Source: the human T2T-CHM13v2.0 reference genome, Homo sapiens. Taken from it: DNA of 64,000 bases. A program made the translations under genes and the position numbers. How positions within the stretch are numbered: the stretch's first letter is position 1; each line of letters begins with the position of its first letter. The stretch lies in NCBI RefSeq assembly GCF_009914755.1, contig NC_060933.1, one strand, 5' to 3'. Below, one piece after another: positions 40,348 to 58,829 of the stretch. The notes beneath the pieces were generated by a model. That model had not been told where the DNA came from. It saw nothing but the letters and a program-made list of their open reading frames with translations, and did not search any database.

Positions 40348-40683
<336 letters not shown>

Positions 40684-42108
40684 TAACGATCGTAAGACAT
40701 CTGCAAGAAGCAGATGGAGAAATAAATACATGATAATTTGTGATCTGCAGAATCGCAAGCTAAAGCTAGAGAGAGAAGAGAAAGAGAAACTTGTGTCCCA
40801 GAAACTTGTGTAAGTATGCCTTTCTCTTCAGTCTGATTGGGCCATTTTAAATGAATCCACTCCTGGATAACAGGAAAATATATCTCAATTAAATTGCTCC
40901 AATCAGAATTTCTTCTGAAACTGAAAAAGGAATGAATATCTGAACAAAACTGTGAGAGTTAGAAACAGGAAGTGGAGGTGAATGTTGGGTAGTCTGCCAA
41001 CCATGTTGACTAAACTCAATTTCCCGAAATGTACACAGCATACACTAAAGCAATCTGTGTCCGAAAGATTCACTTCAGGTTAAATTCTGAGAAGGGTCAA
41101 TTATCAGGTATGTGAGCTTTCATTGACTTCAGGAACTGCAGTGTATATCTTACAAGGATATTTAAAATTTTTTCACCCCAAAATATAACTTATATGCTAA
41201 GTTATATCGATATTAAAATATAACCATAAATGTGGGTCAAAATAATTCAATTTTATTTATTGGATTTATTCTATTTCTTTTGTGTTTTTTTAATGCTAAT
41301 ATCTAGAATCTAGAATTTCGATGCTGACAGGAAGTATTATAAATTGGGTTTCCTGATACTGTGTTTTAAAAATTTTTATTAGCAGATTTGAAACTGCACT
41401 GACACTAATTTAAATTTTACAAGTAATTTTCTGCATTTTACGAAATGTCTAAAGTATATTTAGAACTAGCTATGTAGCCACTAGGAAGAAAGTGTGAAAG
41501 AACAGTAGAGAGTGGAGGTGGTTAGCTAATGTCTTTTAGTGCATGATTGGACTCTGAGTATATTTTAACATGTCGTGAGTGTACCAGTTAAAAGACTAAT
41601 TGTTAACATGAGAAAAGAAATGGAGCTAAGTTTAAAAACAGAATGAGGAGAATCATTGATTAGTTCTCTATTTTTACAGCAGAAAATGTGACTTAGGTGT
41701 TTAAATTGTGAAGTCATTTGCAGAGAACACACATAAATAGTTCTCAGTAGATATTCTTTTACCTATATTTAGTATAAAGGCAGTCACTATTCTTAGCATA
41801 ATTATTCCATTTTTCTTCATATAGTTTCATTGCTCTTGGTCAGAACAATGACACACTCATTATTTCTGTCCAGATTTTCAAGGATTATTGACGCAGTTGA
41901 TGATATTTTCCTACAACCTACGTTAACAGCACCCATTGTTCAGAATATAGACTCTCACAGGATTGAGGTACGAGCACAGTTTAGATCTTAAGCCACGCCG
42001 GCTTGTGGGTAAAACTTGGAGTAAAATTAACCTCTAGGCCTAAATCTCACAGGCTTATTTAGATTTACCTTTATAATCCCAGGACATTGACTACTGTCTG
42101 AAGTACTC

Positions 42109-42546
42109 TGTGTTAGTTTCCTAGAGTTGCTGTAACAAAGTGCCACAAAAATGGGTGGTTTAGAACAAGTGACAGTTATTGTCTCACAGATTTGGAGGCT
42201 GGAAGTTCAAAATCACGGCGGGCAGGGCCATGTTCCTTCTGAAGGCAGGATCTGCTCCAGGGCTCTCTCCTACTTTATGGTAGCCTCGGGCATGCTGTGG
42301 CTTGTGCATAGCTCTCTTCTCCCCATGTCTCTTCACATCCTCTTCTCTCCATGTACGCCTCTGTGTCCAGCTTTCCACTTCTCTTAAGGATACAGTCGTA
42401 TTGGATTAAATCCCATCTTCATCACCTCATTTAATTTAGTTACCTTTGTAAAAACCCTATTTCCACATAAGGTCACATTCTGAGGTACTGGGGGTTATGA
42501 TTTTAACTTATCTTTTGGGAGGGGGTACACAATTCAGCCCGTGACA
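42109..42546 (-). mobile_element. MaLR solo LTR (MLT1A-C-like)
   Basis: TG..CA termini; TTAGTTTCCTAG..GCTGTAACAAAGTGCCACAAA and GGTCACATTCTGAGGTACTGGGGGTTA motifs. Confidence 0.85.
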
Positions 42547-42779
42547 TGTGCCTCCTTACCTTAGACCAGTGAAGGTCCCCGGCTCATATCTGGCATGGGC
42601 TGCCTTGGGTCACCACCCAGATGCTACTCCCCACATATTCCGGGCCATAGGGTTCAACATACTGCTTAGGCTGCAGCTCTAGTCAAACAATTGTTAGTTG
42701 AATGACTACTGCTTGCTAGCCTTGGGGATACATTAGAAATGGTTGTTGTCTACAAATAAATAAATAACAGTATAATTAG

Positions 42780-43875
42780 AAATGATGTTCTATGTTTTGG
42801 AGTATATGAGTAGGGTGGAGGGAAAAAGAATAATAATAAGGGGAGGGTACCCACCTACCTAGGTTAGTCACAGAAAGCTACTCTGAGTAGGTGACCTTTT
42901 GACCTAGGCCGGAAGGATGAGAAAAGATCAGCAGAAGATGAAAAACAGATAATTTCTTATTCCAGGCAGAAAAAATAGCATGTGCAAAGGCCCTGAGGCA
43001 GGAAAGAGGTGAGCCTATTTTAAGATCTGAAAGGCAGATAAGATATCTAGACTTTGCTATTACCCATTTTATAGAGCAATAGAGTAATATTTCCTAACGT
43101 ATATAATAAAGGCAGAATTGGGATTGGATCTACTTTACTTTGTCCTCACCAATGCGTATTCTTCCCCTAAACAGATTAATTACTGAGTCCTGCTGGTTGT
43201 ATCTGCCTTCCTCTCTATCCTTACTCCTACTTATATAGGAGTGGACACTTGCCACCTTCTATGAGATTCCTATATCAGCCTTCCCTAATGACAGCAGACC
43301 TGTCCTCTTAAAATTCATTCTTCACACTCCAGCCAGAGAGGACAGATAGCTGAGTTTCTGTTTGGCTTAACACCCACTGCTGAACCCACACCCTCTACAG
43401 CATGCCCCTAGGAGGCTCACTGTGATCTCTGAGGACTGCCATGCTGTGGCCTCTGTTCCTAATTCAGGCCAACTGTCTGCCATCCTGCTGTCAGCCCCGA
43501 GCACCATGGACTGTTTTTGCAGTCCTCCTCTTTATTATGCTGTTTTGCACCCCTAGCCTGTGCTGATGCTGTGCCTTGCTATAGGTAAGTTTTGGTGAAG
43601 TCTATTAAATACTTTAACATCTAGCTGATGGCCTTCCTCCTCTAAGATGCGTTCCCAGAACTTTTGACTAAGCTACATGGCCTTCCTTGGTGCTTCCATG
43701 TGCACATCCCTATCATTGCCCTCAGCACATTGCTCTTCAATGGTCTGTTGATGGGTTTTTTCATTGAGAACAATTTCAGGCAGACACTGTGCTTTCATCT
43801 TTGTACATACCCAGTACAGTGCCTGGAACATAGTGGATATTCAACAGTTTTCTGCTGAGTATGTGGATGAATGAC
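42780..43875. mobile_element. L2 and MIR fragments (L2 minus ~42780-43040, MIR ~43055-43160, L2 plus 3' end ~43180-43875)
   Basis: TTCCAGGCAGA..AGCATGTGCAAAGGCCCTGAGGCAGGAAAGAG and ACAGTGCCTGGAACATAGT..GAATGA L2 motifs. Confidence 0.7.
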
Positions 43876-44252
43876 AATTTCCAAGACATAGTTGAGAAAA
43901 AAACTTCGTAAGTTTGAAGCTACCTTGGATGTTTTAGAGAATCCAACAACCACTTTCTTCTAATTTATTCCTTCCCTCCTTGTTCAAAAATTCCCTTTAT
44001 GCCAGTTTCTGGGCCTCAGAAGCCTCACCATACTCATACACCCTGCTGGAAGCCACAACTGTATTTGAATTGTCAGTCATAACACCTTATTCCCACCACT
44101 TCACACTCAATGTGAACCCAAGTACAATATCCTACAAGGAAATCATAACCTCTCTCTGCTTCTGGATTATGGTGCTCTACACAATAGTACCTCTAAGACT
44201 CGCCCTAAGATGTCTAAGTGCATCTCCATGAACTGCCACAATAGTCTCCAGG

Positions 44253-44274
44253 TGCCCTTCCACGTGGAAGGGCA
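44253..44274. repeat. Perfect 22-bp palindrome TGCCCTTCCACGTGGAAGGGCA
   Basis: Self-reverse-complementary with a central CACGTG. Overlaps the start of the inverted-repeat left arm. Confidence 0.97.
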
Positions 44275-44539
44275 TTTCACTCAAAGCATGACTGGCAGCT
44301 CAAGTAGAGCAACAAGATGAGTGTGGGCAGCCCTGTGTCTTGCCAGGTCAGTGCTGGCGGCTGTGAGAGAGGCGATGACCCATGCAGGCGCTGCAGCAGC
44401 AATACAGAGGCTATGCAGGAAATGGGGAGTGGGAGAATTGCTGCAGCAGCAGAACTGCCACCCACTGGGAGATATCAACTACCCAGGGCTCGACCTGGCA
44501 AAGGGAACATTCCTGTGATTCTGCGGGGTAAAATTCAGA
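44272..44539 (+). repeat. Inverted repeat, left arm (268 bp)
   Basis: Ungapped reverse complement of 45299-45566 with 5 mismatches (44304, 44319, 44362, 44388, 44389). Near-identical ORFs appear on opposite strands in the ORF track. Confidence 0.98.
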
Positions 44540-45298
44540 ACAAAAGGGCATTGTTATGTTCCAGAATTATGGTTCCTGATTCTATCTCCAATATTTAAAA
44601 TGAGTCATCTATCCATTGCACATCTCAACATCTTTCTATGTAGTTCAGGACAAGCATGACATGAGGAATGTATAATTAGAGTCAGTCAAACTTAAAGGCT
44701 CAGAGATCTATTAATGCTTATGAAGTTTGTTAGAGAATATTTCTTTTCAGCGCAGCATATGCACAGGTTATGTGCTTGGAGGGGGAAGCAGCTCCATAGG
44801 CAAAAGTGGAAGGCCTTGAAGCTTTGTTCTTTTCTGAGACAGCACCCAGCAAGGTGTACCATTGCTGTGCTACATTCTGTGAATATTTTGGGGACAAGTG
44901 TCAGGACACGTTTCATGAGCACAGGTGCATTCTATTTGTGTCAGCATCTGTAGAGTACGGGAGGGTGTTGAAAGAAAAAGAACAGACTTTTCTCCCAACT
45001 CCAGTAAGGCTGCCGTTGGAAAAGGCTTTTCTTGGCATTTTTCTGAACACAGCTCAGTAATGCTTCTAGGTGGGGTATACTGAGAACAAGGGATTCCAAA
45101 TCCAAAACTGTCCTACTCAAGCCCCTACTTAACTTGGAATGAGGTTGTGCAAGAAGTTGGTCTTCTGGTTACTTGTTCAACACAGCTGGAACCTTCCCTA
45201 CCAAGGCAACTGTTACTTGGGTTCAGGGTTAGGGGAAGGTCATGATAGCCTTTAAAGGATGTGAGAACAAACAGCCATGGTACTGACAAGTCATTGGC

Positions 45299-45566
45299 TC
45301 TGAATTTTACCCCGCAGAATCACAGGAATGTTCCCTTTGCCAGGTCGAGCCCTGGGTAGTTGATATCTCCCAGTGGGTGGCAGTTCTGCTGCTGCAGCAA
45401 TTCTCCCACTCCCCATTTCCTGCATAGCCTCTGTATTGCTGCTGCAGCATCTGCATGGGTCATCGCCTCTCTCACGGCCGCCAGCACTGACCTGGCAAGA
45501 CACAGGGCTGCCCACACTGATCTTGTTGCTCTAATTGAGCTGCCAGTCATGCTTTGAGTGAAATGC
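45299..45566 (-). repeat. Inverted repeat, right arm (268 bp)
   Basis: Partner of 44272-44539; spacer 759 bp. Confidence 0.98.
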
Positions 45567-46144
45567 GGAAAGCCGTGGTCCCCACAGAAGTTATAAATTT
45601 TAATTCTACTTGGACTTGAGAAAGAGTAGCCTTGATTGTCATTATCCCATTTTATGGAGTCCTTTTGCCTAGGAATCTGAGACAAATTTCCCAATGGGTA
45701 CACTAGAGAACAGTTTAATGGTACTACAAAATGTCATATGTAGAAACACCCCTCCCAGTCCGCAGTCAAATTGTGTCCAAGAGTTGAGACTAGACATCTT
45801 TTTCTTTTGTTTCTCAGGAAGCTCCCTACCTAGTTGTGATACTTTGGGAGAAATGAGTCTCTCTTTTTAAAATATTGAGTCTGGAGAATATCATTTTGAC
45901 AATTTTCTCTATAGTATCTCCTGCAAGGTTTATAAAGTCCCATTTATGCTAGTGTTACCCTCCCTTCTGAAATCCTAAGTGTTTATAATATCTTTATATG
46001 TAGCATAAATACTAACAAATATGATAAAGCAACTGGTGATAACTTTTTTTAACTTTAAAAAATATGGAAATGTTTTCGAAGTTACATTTGTTCATTTTTT
46101 TATATCCAAAATTGTTTCAGAATTGATTTACCTATCATAAGAAT

Positions 46145-47720
46145 ACTTGCAAGAATAAGAATAATGCAAAGAACACCCGTATACTCTTTAACCTATATTC
46201 ACCCATGATTAATATCTTACTCCATTACCTTATTGATTGCTCGAGAGATAGATAGGTAGATAATGAGGGATAGATGGATAGATAGATAGATGTATAATAT
46301 TTTTCCTGAATCACTGGTAGATAAGTTACATACACCACTGCCCTTTACTTCTAAGTACCTTAGTAGGAATTTCATTAAGAATAATCATAATAGTTATCAA
46401 GCTCAGTTAAAGTAGTATTGATATCTCTAATAAATCTAAGATATATTTACTTTAGATATAATCTGTCATCTGTATTTCAGTTTTTCAGTTGACCTAATAA
46501 TAACCTTCACAGTAATTTCCCCCCTCTCCAATACTGGATCTGGTCTAGATTTACATATCACATTTAGTTGTCATGTCTTTTGCATCTCCCTTAATCTGAA
46601 ATATCCCAAGATTCTTTGTCTTTCATGACCCTTTCATTTTTGAAGAATACAATCATGTTCCTTTTTTTAAAAAATAGGGATTGTTTCTTATTTGGGGTTT
46701 GATGTTTTCTTATGATTACATTCTATTTTCAGCAAGATGACAGCACAGGTGATCAATCTGGATATACACAATGGCCTTCTGCCTTTCATTGATATTAATT
46801 TTGATCACCCAAAGTGTTACCTGATTTCTCCACTGTATAATTTTTTTTCTCTTGAAACTCATCAGCAGTTTGTAGGGGAAATCCTTCAAGATGATTCAAG
46901 TATCTGGCTCTTCATCATAATTTGGCAGTCATCAATGTTTGCAAAATGCTAATCTTTCAAGACTAGCTCATCCTACACATTTGCCGGTTGACTCTCAGCA
47001 ACATACCATAAGCAAGGACTCTGCTTTCTTTCCCACTTATTTAGTTATTTATCTATTTATTATTGGTATGGACTAAGGAATTTCTATTTTTAATAGTTTA
47101 TAATTCATTCAAGTACTAAATAGTTGATGATCAAATTGCTCCAGATTTGGCAAGAAGGAGCCTATTCATATGGCTCTGTCCTTTTGGTATCCATCTCTTA
47201 GTTTTTGAGCCCTAGTCTAACTTTTAAAAGAACAAAATGTTCTAGGATCATCCATACCTACCCTGCCTGAGCCCTGGAATTAGCCAAGGAGTTGGAGTCC
47301 TTTTAGTGGTGAATAGTATTAGAGACCAAAGTTTGGGACTAGGCATGCCCAACTGGAATGTCTTTGCTTCTTGATGCTTTCAGAAGACAGAGCTAGGAAA
47401 TATGCACATGTATATATACAAATTCATTCAGAAACGTACAAATATGCATACATATATGCACCCACACATGCACAGACATATGCATACATTCATGCTATAT
47501 ATTATACATTTATATCCACACTTTAGAAATTATGAGTTCACATCAGCATGTCCAATTCCAATTCACCACCACAGAGTACTTCATTGCCTTTGCTCCTCCA
47601 CATTTTTATTTCTCTTCTCAGTGGCAAGGCTGAATCCCAACAACATCAACACATGTATTTATTGGCTCATTCATTTGTTCATATATTTCTATCCAAAATT
47701 GTTTCCAAATTGATTTACTT
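46145..47720 (-). mobile_element. Old LINE-1 3' UTR (L1MC/L1MD-like), includes a GATA tract at ~46245-46291
   Basis: TTGCAAGAAT..AAAGAACACCCGTATAC, CATTTAGTTGTCATGTCT and TCAAATTG..CCAGATTTGGC motifs typical of antisense L1MC. Confidence 0.75.
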
Positions 47721-48524
47721 ATCATAAAATTGCTTTAATTAGAAAAAATGAGATACTTCTTCTCAAGTACAGCTTCACTCCTTTCTTACACAATAGTCTT
47801 ATTTCCATAGTCATAGGAGACACAAAAAGGCTTAAATTCAATTGAGTTCCAAAACTTATACTCTTCTTCTTAACAATATTGTTGTATAATCTTAGCTCTG
47901 GAATATTTATTTTATTACCAGGGAGGGAATTGGGAATGAAGATCACTCTGTCTCCTATGCTAGGTATGAACGTTAATTTTGAAGGTGAGTTTGGAGTTGG
48001 TTTGAAAATAATGGGTTGTAGAGAAGGCTTCCTGTACCCTTCAAGAGCCCAGCAGTGAGGTCTTGAGATTGCACACACCGGTTTATAATTTTATAAGCAC
48101 TTAAAATTTTTAATTTACCCATAGATTTTCCCTCTATCTAAATATTTTTTGCTTAATATTTAGATTGCCAGAGAAGCTAGAGATTTTCTCGCAGGTAAAT
48201 GAGGATGGAATACTTTAAATACAAATCACCAGGCTTTTGTACCTATAAGGGGCAGTAATAATTTAATAGTATCACAAAGGAAGTTACCACGCAGTAACAT
48301 TTTCTAAAGTATGATTCTTGGGATACTATAATTATGTGGCAGCATTATTATGAGTATTTGAAAATAACATTCATAGATAAGTTTGGAAAATTTGTGGTAA
48401 AATACACTAAATATTTCAAAATTTTCTCCAATAATTCTTAGGGTTTTAATTTTGATAATGTACATTGCGTATTGCCAACAGGAAATAAAATTCAGGTCTC
48501 TGCACCATATTTTAAAACTGATTA

Positions 48525-48735
48525 CAGGCATACTTCAAAGATATTTCAGGTTCATTTCCAGACCACCACAATAATGTATTGCAATAATGAAAGTCACATG
48601 AATTTTTTGACTTCCCAGTGCATGTAATGACAACAGTGAAGTTTGCTGTACCCATTGACTTTTCTTTTAAAAACGATTTTACTGTAGCATGTGATGCTCA
48701 CTGATAGCATTTTACCTACAGAACTAACTTCTTTC

Positions 48736-57723: not shown

Positions 57724-58829
57724 AAATTAGAAAAGCAAGAAGGACCCAAGTTAGAAAGCTCTTCCCTAAATTCTCTAGACAATGCCTCTGTGATAGAACT
57801 TAGAGGTATCCTATATTTACCTGCACACAGGTTAAGACTGGCTGAAGGTAATTGTTTCTAAGGCCACAATGAAGCCACACCCATAACCACCAGTTAGTTG
57901 CCTCTCCTGAGCCATGGTTTAAATTTAGGCTGTGGTTTGAAACAACAACAAAAAACAGCTAAAGAAACCAAGGAGGAAGTTTTGGATCTTTCTCAAAGCA
58001 ACATGGAAAAGAAGGGAGAGATGGAAAACAAAATATTTTGGAAGGGAGTGGAAAAGATGACCTACTCATGGCACTAAAGGCATACAGGGCAAAGGAATGT
58101 GTATGTCTAGAACCAAAGAGCAGGGCTGCTTCTCTGGCGTCTCCAGGGGAAAGGAAAGATGTTATGCAAACCTGTATGAAAGGGGAATCACTTCCTCACA
58201 TGGCTCAGGCTGTTGTTTACCAGAGTAACATTCGGGCTCCAACTGTCCTTTCTTATAGAGAAAGGCTGTCTCCTGCTGTTTGTGGATCCAAGGCCTGCTG
58301 AAAGCTGTTTAGAAGTGCATACCACTCCATGTGCAGCTCCTTCATTCCTTTGCTGTGTTTGCATGCCTCACCGAGCATATTCACTGTCCTATGCCTTGCA
58401 CAAAACCCTCACGTTCCTTTTTGGAATGCCTCTGTGTCTCTGTGTGTACTTGAATCTCCAGGCCAATGAACATGAGCTTCCTCCTTCTCAGCACCTGAGG
58501 AAAGTTTAAACAAATGTAAAGGCATAAAAACCTTTCTTCTGTCCTGATCTAGTTGACTAATAATGTATATATTGTTTTCTGTTTTTGAAAAAACAAGAAA
58601 AAAAAAATCTCTCCCTGCCTTTGGAAAAAAGCATGACAAGAGGCTCCACCTGCTGGCCTAGGGGCTTCCAGAAGTTTCAGACCTATTATCTCAGATTGGA
58701 AATAACATCCATTCCTACTCTTCCCATTGGTAGTTTTGAAATATAGTGCCATGTCATAGTGTCCATGGACATCACTTGGTTTATGCAGTTCTCCAGCTAT
58801 TCAAACAGTCTGTAAGCCAAATACTTCTG

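What the first reader, a model, noticed from the sequence alone, without database searches (positions are those of the whole stretch)
44272..45566. Near-perfect non-transposon inverted repeat (2 x 268 bp, 98%) around a 759-bp loop: candidate recurrently invertible segment kept homogeneous by gene conversion
Seen: the arms align without gaps and with only 5 mismatches. All five lie in the outer 118 bp, while the inner 150 bp (44390-44539) are identical. The arms are about 55% GC (147/268 counted) in an AT-rich region and match no repeat family I recognise. Faint similarity continues beyond both boundaries (inner TTGTTATGTTCCA vs TTGTCAGTACCA; outer CCCTTCC vs CTTTCC). Established: close, highly identical inverted repeats mediate NAHR inversions and arm-to-arm gene conversion. 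Inference: the duplication may be older than 98% identity implies, the arms may evolve in concert, and the loop may exist in both orientations in the population.
Basis: partly seen in the sequence, partly recalled or inferred. Interest (0 to 1): 0.85.

Follow-up and report, generated by a model that had tools for sequence, protein, structure and literature searches.

The report
Small single-copy inverted duplication, chr9p
A 268-base stretch of unique human DNA is present twice in opposite orientation about 760 bases apart in a gene desert; it is real and not a mobile element, but nothing available here shows that the middle piece flips or that the two copies correct each other.

Summary
The inverted repeat is real: arms 44272-44539 and 45299-45566 (268 nt, ungapped, 5 mismatches, 98.1%) around a 759-nt loop. 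The edges are sharp. The arm has only these two copies in T2T-CHM13, lies in 8 kb with no masked repeat of 100 bp or more, and has no Rfam or Pfam signal. It is therefore not a transposon family. New here: the only 22-bp perfect palindrome in 234 kb examined sits on the outer edge of the left arm and overlaps it by 3 nt. That points to a replication template-switch origin. The 1.9% divergence fits a simple duplication about 9-19 My old (interval 3-45) with no gene conversion. The clustering of mismatches is marginal (P 0.016 to 0.18, depending on the test). Loop orientation in other people and arm trees in apes cannot be tested here. Published surveys suggest a low prior: only 6 of 319 untested inverted duplication pairs were polymorphic. 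RefSeq hESC enhancer elements overlap the loop and right arm. Verdict: a real, ordinary small inverted duplication with an informative breakpoint. The inversion and conversion reading is untested.

The parts
44272..44539 (+). Left arm of the inverted repeat (268 nt, 54.9% GC, 5 CpG)
   Evidence: Ungapped reverse-complement match to 45299-45566 with 5 mismatches. The only other genomic copy is the right arm.
44540..45298 (.). Unique loop or spacer (759 nt, 42.6% GC), with no internal mirror symmetry and no convincing ORF
   Evidence: 3-8 of 20 matches per window in mirror register; composition; longest ORFs carry no Pfam family above cut-off; no other genomic copy.
45299..45566 (-). Right arm of the inverted repeat (268 nt, 54.1% GC, 5 CpG)
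44253..44274 (.). Perfect 22-bp palindrome TGCCCTTCCACGTGGAAGGGCA (CACGTG centre). It straddles the outer edge of the left arm and shares the arm's first 3 nt. It folds as a 9-bp stem with a 4-nt loop.
   Evidence: (last row). It is the only perfect palindrome with a half-length of 11 or more in 234 kb examined, apart from (AT)n runs. Shuffles of the window give a mean of 0.03 per 64 kb.
44266..44271 (+). Hexamer directly before the left arm. It is a near-copy (5 of 6) of the hexamer directly after the right arm. This is a target-site-duplication-like feature that remains unexplained.
   Evidence: empirical chance 0.008 (6-mer, at most 1 mismatch) to 0.019 (any k from 4 to 10).
45567..45572 (+). 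Hexamer directly after the right arm, partner of 44266-44271
44909..45910 (.). Two abutting RefSeq functional elements, 'OCT4-NANOG-H3K27ac hESC enhancer' (44909-45410 and 45411-45910). Together they cover the right half of the loop, the whole right arm and 344 nt beyond it.
   Evidence: RefSeq annotation table. The source type is a ChIP-STARR-seq study in human ES cells (PMC6084406, search listing only).

Best explanation
This is a single-copy, lineage-specific local inverted duplication. One 268-nt piece of unique, non-coding DNA was copied in reverse complement about 0.76 kb from its source, giving arm-loop-arm. The most likely mechanism is a replication or repair template switch, in which a nascent strand leaves its template, copies the other strand nearby and returns. 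The duplication edge coincides with a hairpin-forming perfect palindrome. There are two variants. (A) The right arm is the copy. Synthesis ran leftwards along the left arm, stopped 3 nt into a pre-existing hairpin, and returned to where it had left with a 2-nt GC overlap. (B) The left arm is the copy. A 3' end at 44263 folded back, copied 11 nt of itself (creating the palindrome), then switched with a 3-nt overlap onto the right arm. Since then the arms have diverged by 1.9%, which needs no gene conversion. The structure is probably fixed in one orientation, or flips only very rarely. Shown: the structure, its uniqueness, its sharp edges and the palindrome at the edge. Inferred: the mechanism, the age, and stability of orientation.
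For: Structure and sharp edges. Only two copies in the genome, both here: (2 of 2 scored candidates). In one search a 2.9-kb query gave 56 matches at E<=10: the query itself, the two arm cross-matches, one 64-nt local match, the palindrome's match to itself, and 51 in the GATA-type simple repeat at 46140-46304. No masked repeat of 100 bp or more lies between 40637 and 48680. No RNA family was found in the repeat (0 of 3 weak hits lie in it). No protein family was above cut-off in the 5 longest ORFs. The palindrome at the edge is the only non-(AT)n perfect palindrome with half-length of 11 or more in 234 kb. Shuffles give 0.03 per 64 kb. The chance that such a rare element overlaps one of four arm edges is about 4e-4 to 8e-4 (my arithmetic). 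It folds as a hairpin. Junction overlaps are 2 nt in scenario A and 3 nt in scenario B. Template switching is documented to create reverse-complement copies and hairpins in human and ape genomes (PMC5453318, passages). Age: JC distance 0.0189 (Poisson 95% interval 0.006-0.045). At recalled rates of 1.0 and 0.5e-9 per site per year this gives 9-19 My (extremes 3-45 My).
Against: No outgroup sequence was available, so which arm is the copy, and the age, are not shown. Overlaps of 2-3 nt are expected by chance at 1/16 to 1/64. Scenario B has no overlap at its return junction. The template-switch events described in the paper read are short, tens of bases; 268 nt copied over about 1 kb is larger. 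The near-identical hexamers abutting the whole unit (P about 0.008-0.019) are explained by neither scenario. The absence of mismatches in the inner 150 nt (P 0.016-0.18) could reflect a conversion tract. Matches in closed regions of the reference are not shown, so 'two copies' is a lower bound.
Confidence: 0.6

Rival explanations
1. One reading: the loop inverts recurrently by homologous exchange between the arms, and the arms are kept alike by arm-to-arm gene conversion, so the duplication is older than 98% identity suggests.
For: The geometry is right: close, 98% identical inverted arms. All 5 mismatches lie in the outer 118 nt (P 0.016 one-sided). Validated human inversions exist with repeats as short as 140 bp and inverted segments as short as 197 bp (PMC13629690, section 4). 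Most repeat-mediated inversions studied are recurrent (PMC6748972, passages). Arms are GC-richer (55%) than the loop (43%), as GC-biased conversion would give; however, the neighbouring unduplicated DNA reaches 50% as well.
Against: There is no homology beyond the arm edges. The clustering loses significance once the choice of end and the adjacent mismatch pair are allowed for (0.07-0.18). The longest identical tract is only 150 nt. The 24 homologous-exchange inversions genotyped in PMC6748972 had repeats of 654 bp to 24.2 kb. Only 6 of 319 (1.9%) inverted duplicate pairs without prior evidence were polymorphic in 54 people. The two RefSeq enhancer elements projected from the older reference abut exactly across the right arm (45410|45411). 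I take this as weak evidence that GRCh38 and T2T-CHM13 share one orientation.
Confidence: 0.08
2. The 1,295-bp unit is a non-autonomous DNA transposon with 268-bp terminal inverted repeats and a 6-bp target-site duplication.
For: Near-identical hexamers abut both ends (5 of 6; empirical chance 0.008-0.019). The unit has terminal inverted repeats with sharp ends.
Against: There is no other copy of the arm or loop anywhere in the genome. No transposase-like ORF was found. The stretch is not soft-masked as a repeat. From recall, no DNA transposon has been active in the anthropoid lineage within the time that 1.9% arm divergence allows, and 6 bp is not the duplication length of the superfamilies present in primates. 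The left hexamer is simply half of the palindrome.
Confidence: 0.02
3. The symmetry is functional: a regulatory module (hESC enhancer) in which two mirrored copies of a binding-site cluster are maintained by selection.
For: RefSeq places two 'OCT4-NANOG-H3K27ac hESC enhancer' elements over the loop's right half and the right arm. The locus lies in an 8-kb stretch free of masked repeats inside the MPDZ-NFIB gene desert.
Against: There is no SOX-OCT composite site in the repeat: 0 of the 24 window matches with 3 or fewer mismatches fall in 44272-45566, and the window total is below the shuffle mean of 30.1 (the consensus was recalled). The annotation does not cover the left arm. No conservation data were available. 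Enhancer activity on a plasmid says nothing about a need for symmetry.
Confidence: 0.05
4. Assembly artefact: a fold-back error created one arm.
For: None from the sequence.
Against: The arms differ at 5 sites, whereas a fold-back chimera would be identical. The 1.3-kb unit is far shorter than the long reads behind this assembly (recall). RefSeq elements defined on the older reference map contiguously, at their expected lengths of about 500 bp, across the loop/right-arm junction.
Confidence: 0.01

Closest known systems
[quoted passage not shown]
   Same: Two inverted copies with more than 90% identity flank a unique segment. This is the substrate for non-allelic homologous recombination, and the size range overlaps the catalogue (repeats 140 bp-190 kb, segments 197 bp-4.4 Mb).
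   Different: No second orientation has been observed here. The arms (268 nt, longest perfect tract 150 nt) are shorter than the 654 bp-24.2 kb repeats of the 24 well-studied cases. The only chr9 inversion in the main-text tables I read (HsInv0114, chr9:125.78 Mb in hg18) is elsewhere.
Template-switch mutations (four-point model, PMC5453318; great-ape survey PMC7954356 seen in listing only)
   Same: A reverse-complement copy of nearby sequence is inserted with sharp edges, creating an inverted repeat or hairpin. A short palindrome sits at the switch point.
   Different: Described events are tens of bases long and very local. Here 268 nt were copied over about 0.8-1.0 kb, closer to the FoSTeS/MMBIR scale.
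Large sex-chromosome palindromes with arm-to-arm gene conversion (recalled; PMC11168930 seen in listing only)
   Different: Those arms are kilobases to megabases long, more than 99.9% identical and carry genes (recall). These arms are 268 nt, 98.1% identical and non-coding.
Genome-wide maps of intrachromosomal repeat pairs of at least 200 bp and 80% identity (PMC11794170)
   Same: This pair meets the thresholds, so it is probably already an entry in that public map of T2T-CHM13 (627,791 inverted pairs).
   Different: Most mapped pairs are SINEs (73%) with median identity 84%. Pairs outside SINE, LINE, LTR, segmental-duplication and satellite classes number only 4,418 (1.6%). This pair is single-copy DNA at 98% identity. 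I could not check the map itself.
Segmental duplication (at least 1 kb, at least 90% identity)
   Same: A duplicated unique sequence of high identity.
   Different: It fails the 1-kb length criterion, so it is absent from the tracks that inversion surveys draw candidates from.

Membership tests
Inverted-repeat-mediated (NAHR) polymorphic inversion | Pair of inverted repeats with more than 90% identity at the two ends of the segment | tested here: met
   268 nt, 98.1% identity, ungapped.
Inverted-repeat-mediated (NAHR) polymorphic inversion | Both orientations of the segment observed among individuals | not testable with these tools
   Reads, other assemblies and supplementary tables are closed. 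Weak indirect hint of the same orientation in GRCh38: RefSeq elements abut at 45410|45411.
Inverted-repeat-mediated (NAHR) polymorphic inversion | Recurrence (the same inversion on unrelated haplotypes or in other apes) | not testable with these tools
   No population or ape data are available.
Palindrome evolving in concert (arm-to-arm gene conversion) | Arms more alike within a species than orthologous arms are between species | not testable with these tools
   No other primate genome is reachable.
Palindrome evolving in concert (arm-to-arm gene conversion) | Non-random distribution of arm differences (conversion tract) | tested here: inconclusive
   All 5 of 5 mismatches lie in the outer 118 nt. 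Permutation P ranges from 0.016 (inner end) to 0.095 (any run), or 0.036 to 0.18 if the adjacent pair counts as one event.
Palindrome evolving in concert (arm-to-arm gene conversion) | Older, more diverged homology continuing beyond the homogenised core | tested here: not met
   Flank alignments are at chance: 114-323 of 500 shuffles reach the observed score.
DNA transposon / MITE with terminal inverted repeats | Multiple copies in the genome | tested here: not met
   The arm has 2 places, both at this locus. The loop and flanks have none. Closed regions are not shown.
DNA transposon / MITE with terminal inverted repeats | Target-site duplication abutting both ends | tested here: inconclusive
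   Hexamers match at 5 of 6 positions; chance 0.008-0.019. The length is atypical for primate superfamilies (recall).
DNA transposon / MITE with terminal inverted repeats | Transposase gene or a match to a known family | tested here: not met
   No Pfam family above cut-off in the 5 longest ORFs. Not masked as a repeat. Dfam and RepeatMasker are not available.
Template-switch (replicative) inverted duplication | Reverse-complement copy of nearby sequence with sharp edges | tested here: met
Template-switch (replicative) inverted duplication | Microhomology or secondary-structure element at a switch point | tested here: met
   A 22-bp perfect palindrome overlaps the arm edge by 3 nt. A 2-nt GC overlap is present at the scenario-A return junction. 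The overlaps alone are weak; the palindrome coincidence has a chance of about 4e-4 to 8e-4.
Template-switch (replicative) inverted duplication | Ancestral state lacking one arm in an outgroup | not testable with these tools
   No outgroup genome is available.
Segmental duplication | Length of at least 1 kb at 90% identity or more | tested here: not met
   Arms are 268-273 nt.

The most novel reading that the evidence does not exclude
The 759-bp loop is a natural flip-flop inside an embryonic-stem-cell enhancer of the MPDZ-NFIB gene desert. Under this reading it exists in both orientations in people and apes through recurrent exchange between arms only 268 nt long, and the inner 150 nt of the arms are kept identical by conversion. 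That would be among the shortest repeat pairs known to drive recurrent inversion in humans. It would also be a case where orientation could alter enhancer architecture.
Probability: 0.05. Interest if true: 0.55.

Novelty: new member of a known kind. Interest (0 to 1): 0.25.

Why it matters
Small, high-identity inverted duplications of unique DNA fall below the 1-kb threshold for segmental duplications. Inversion surveys that draw candidates from duplication tracks therefore skip them (PMC13629690, methods). This one is a clean example with single-copy arms, exact edges and a perfect hairpin-forming palindrome on one edge. With ape genomes it could show, base by base, how a template switch of several hundred bases builds a spaced palindrome. 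If the loop proved to flip, it would lower the known repeat-length limit for recurrent human inversions and would sit inside an annotated stem-cell enhancer. As it stands it is a tidy but ordinary structural feature of non-coding DNA.

Tried and rejected
Transposon reading: rejected on copy number, the lack of an ORF family and the lack of masking. The hexamer pair remains unexplained.

Structured RNA: a permissive Rfam scan of 42000-48000 gave 3 weak hits, all at 47332-47509 and far below gathering scores. None lies in the repeat.

Coding origin (for example a pseudogene fragment): there are 29 ORFs of 30 aa or more across the region, the longest 127 aa. The five longest gave only two sub-threshold Pfam hits: Gemini_AL2 at 15.7 bits against a cut-off of 26.8, and NinB at 13.9 against 23.8. 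I treat these as noise.

Homology beyond the arms: at chance.

SOX-OCT composite site near the left arm's inner edge: the recalled consensus has no match with 3 or fewer mismatches inside 44272-45566 (0 of 24 window matches; shuffle mean 30.1).

Literature search for this locus. A search by coordinate fragments returned only irrelevant papers. The 'HsInv' papers mention chr9 only for HsInv0114 at 125.78 Mb in hg18. PMC6748972 and PMC13629690 have no 'chr9' in the main text. PMC8755829 covers microinversions of 17-33 nt and has no chr9 mention. That this locus is not in print as an inversion rests on those searches only.

Genomic baseline. I asked for 2.4 Mb of chr9 and received 200 kb. In 264 kb scanned (234 kb without overlap) there were 54 inverted pairs of 100 nt or more. 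This locus (seen twice, in the window and in L017) is the only one at 95% or above, and the next best is 83.3%. Within the window, 12 of the 13 pairs of 80 nt or more are 72-84% complementary. The sample is too small for a genome-wide rate, so I used the published map instead.
Full report
1. THE OBSERVATION

The window carries one strong inverted repeat at the stated place. The repeat finder on 43000-47000 returns a single inverted pair: 44272-44544 and 45294-45566, 273 nt, 97% complementary, 749 nt apart. Read in ungapped register, the 268-nt core (44272-44539 against 45299-45566) has five mismatches, at left-arm positions 44304, 44319, 44362, 44388 and 44389. The inner 150 nt are identical. 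The extra five bases that the tool added hold two more mismatches.

Inside the arms, 18-20 of every 20 bases pair. Directly outside, on both sides, the figure drops to 2-8 of 20, which is the random level. The arm GC content of 147/268 is correct. As single-stranded DNA the unit folds into one long stem.

The 'faint similarity' beyond the edges is no better than shuffled sequence. The observed local-alignment score was reached by 117, 323 and 114 of 500 shuffles for inner flanks of 40, 100 and 370 nt, and by 246, 239 and 245 of 500 for outer flanks of 40, 100 and 400 nt.

The surroundings are also only partly AT-rich. The arms close a GC-richer block of roughly 3.5 kb (about 42.1-45.6 kb). DNA at 27-35% GC starts further out.

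2. WHAT IT IS NOT

- Not a repeat family. A search of the whole T2T-CHM13 genome with one arm finds two places, the arm itself and its partner.
- The wider locus is unique too. A 2.9-kb query around the locus gave 56 matches at E<=10: the query itself, the two arm cross-matches, one 64-nt local match, the 22-nt match of the palindrome to itself, and 51 in a GATA-type simple repeat at 46140-46304. Matches in closed regions are not shown, so these counts are lower bounds.
- Not masked. RefSeq's soft-masking lists no repeat of 100 bp or more between 40637 and 48680. Only 14,217 of the window's 64,000 bases are masked.
- Not an RNA family. A permissive Rfam scan gives nothing in the repeat.
- Not coding. 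The ORFs are short (29 of 30 aa or more, the longest 127 aa), and the five longest match no Pfam family above cut-off.
- Unusual for its neighbourhood. Other inverted pairs nearby are of the old-repeat type. In the window, the other 12 of 13 pairs of 80 nt or more are 72-84% complementary. In 264 kb scanned (234 kb non-overlapping), this is the only pair of 100 nt or more at 95% identity or above; the next best is 83.3%.

3. A NEW DETAIL: A PALINDROME ON THE EDGE

Positions 44253-44274 form a perfect 22-bp palindrome with a CACGTG centre. Its last three bases are the first three bases of the left arm. It is the only perfect palindrome with a half-length of 10 or more in the window, where shuffles give a mean of 0.03 per 64 kb for a half-length of 11. 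In 234 kb of real neighbouring sequence, leaving (AT)n runs aside, only one other reaches a half-length of 10 and none reaches 11.

With one or two such elements per 234 kb, the chance that one overlaps any of the four arm edges is about 4e-4 to 8e-4 (my arithmetic). On its own the palindrome folds into a 9-bp stem with a 4-nt loop. I take the coincidence as mechanistic.

4. MOST LIKELY HISTORY

The best fit is a local, replicative inverted duplication produced by template switching. This process is documented to create reverse-complement copies and hairpins in human and ape DNA, though mostly on a scale of tens of bases (PMC5453318, passages read). Two variants fit.

- Scenario A. The right arm is the copy. 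The strand left its template after 45298 and copied the left arm from 44539 down to 44272. It stopped three bases into the hairpin and returned to where it had left. The last two bases before the insertion and the last two bases of the insertion are both GC.
- Scenario B. The left arm is the copy. A 3' end at 44263 folded back and copied 11 nt of itself, which created the palindrome. It then moved with a 3-nt overlap onto the right arm. This variant has no overlap at the return junction.

The two scenarios make different predictions for ape and monkey orthologues, which I could not obtain.

The arms differ by a Jukes-Cantor distance of 0.0189 (Poisson 95% interval 0.006-0.045). With recalled rates of 1.0 and 0.5e-9 per site per year, this is 9-19 My, with extremes of 3-45 My. 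Two of the five differences are at CpG sites (44362 and 44389). So 98% identity is what an unconverted duplication of roughly great-ape age would show.

One feature fits neither scenario. The hexamers directly before the left arm and directly after the right arm match at 5 of 6 positions. The empirical chance in this window is 0.008 for that case, or 0.019 allowing any duplication-like length from 4 to 10. It looks like a target-site duplication, but copy number rules out a transposon family, and the left hexamer is simply half of the palindrome. I leave it unexplained.

Close, highly similar inverted repeats can mediate inversion and conversion, so the idea is legitimate. Its internal support is thin.

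- Homology beyond the arms is absent.
- The clustering of mismatches has a permutation P of 0.016 if only the inner end is considered, 0.032 for either end, and 0.095 for a clean run of 150 nt or more anywhere. Counting the adjacent pair 44388/44389 as one event gives 0.036, 0.073 and 0.18.
- The longest perfect tract is 150 nt.

From the literature read:

- The 24 homologous-exchange inversions genotyped by Giner-Delgado et al. had repeats of 654 bp-24.2 kb (PMC6748972, passages).
- The 2026 long-read survey covers 612 candidates, with repeats of 140 bp-190 kb and segments of 197 bp-4.4 Mb, and found both orientations for 155 (PMC13629690; abstract and sections 4, 7, 10 and 13 read).
- In that survey, among inverted duplicate pairs chosen only because they exist, just 6 of 319 were polymorphic.
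- That survey drew such pairs from the segmental-duplication track (1 kb or more), so a 268-nt pair would enter only if an earlier study had called an inversion there. Its table is supplementary and closed.

One weak hint comes from annotation. The two RefSeq enhancer elements defined on the older reference map to T2T as exactly abutting pieces of 502 and 500 bp across the loop/right-arm junction. This is what I would expect if both references have the same orientation. It is my inference, not a test. I put the full reading (recurrent inversion plus concerted evolution) at about 5-8%.

6. CONTEXT

The locus lies in the MPDZ-NFIB gene desert. The nearest protein-coding genes are 406 kb (NFIB) and 570 kb (MPDZ) away, and the nearest annotated gene of any kind is a lncRNA at 141 kb.

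RefSeq lists two 'OCT4-NANOG-H3K27ac hESC enhancer' elements at 44909-45410 and 45411-45910. They cover the right half of the loop, the right arm and 344 nt beyond it. Labels of this kind derive from a ChIP-STARR-seq study of human ES cells (PMC6084406; I saw only the search listing). The left arm, being 98% identical, would carry nearly the same sites in mirror orientation, but it is not annotated. Whether that reflects biology or ambiguous read mapping cannot be told here. A recalled SOX-OCT composite consensus has no match with 3 or fewer mismatches in the repeat.

A spacer of 759 nt makes hairpin or cruciform extrusion unlikely in normal replication. This rests on the review passages read, in which even 52 bp between inverted Alu elements abolished fork stalling in eukaryotic cells (PMC7999016).

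7. COMPARISON AND NOVELTY

The structure belongs to known kinds. It is a spaced palindrome, or small inverted duplication, that could serve as a substrate for homologous exchange. It fails the segmental-duplication definition by length.

A published genome-wide map of intrachromosomal pairs of at least 200 bp and 80% identity lists 627,791 inverted pairs in T2T-CHM13. Their median identity is 84% and 73% overlap SINEs. Only 4,418 (1.6%) fall outside the SINE, LINE, LTR, segmental-duplication and satellite classes (PMC11794170; abstract and sections 6-7 read). This pair meets that map's thresholds, so it is probably already an unremarked row in it. It would belong to the small 'other' class, at unusually high identity.

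I file it as a new member of a known kind. The breakpoint palindrome is the most informative new point.

8. VERDICT

The finding is real, single-copy and cleanly bounded. It most likely arose as a template-switch inverted duplication of about great-ape age (confidence 0.6). The inversion and conversion story is neither excluded nor supported. Interest is 0.25.

Noticed in passing
window 44253-44274: A perfect 22-bp palindrome with a CACGTG (E-box-like; motif name recalled) centre lies exactly on the outer edge of the left arm. It is the only one of its length in 234 kb examined.
   Followed up: yes
window 44909-45910 and 57984-58524: RefSeq functional elements labelled as hESC enhancers (OCT4-NANOG-H3K27ac at 44909-45410 and 45411-45910; OCT4-NANOG at 57984-58524). 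The first two overlap the loop and right arm but not the nearly identical left arm.
   Followed up: partly
window 44266-44271 and 45567-45572: Near-identical direct hexamers (5 of 6) abut the whole arm-loop-arm unit like a target-site duplication. The empirical chance is 0.008-0.019. This is not explained by the favoured mechanism.
   Followed up: partly
window 40637-48680: An 8-kb stretch without any masked repeat of 100 bp or more, in a window that is only 22% masked. Together with the GC-richer block at about 42.1-45.6 kb, this looks like regulatory gene-desert DNA. No conservation data were available.
   Followed up: no
window 44390-44401 and 44440-44451 (mirrored in the right arm): Each arm contains two exact copies of a 12-nt CAG-rich, partly self-complementary motif 50 nt apart. 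There are also two 10-nt inverted matches at an equal spacing of 142 nt (44329-44349 against 44481-44501).
   Followed up: no
window 46140-46304: A GATA-type microsatellite accounts for 51 of the 56 genome-wide matches of the 2.9-kb query.
   Followed up: no
window 46085-46148 and 47672-47735: A local direct match of 64 nt at 86% identity, 1.6 kb apart, right of the inverted repeat. Weak sub-threshold Rfam miRNA-like hits lie nearby at 47401-47509.
   Followed up: no
window 44508-44514 (mirrored at 45324-45330): Each arm carries a heptamer that matches the recalled M-CAT/TEAD core consensus. This is a lead from memory only and was not tested.
   Followed up: no
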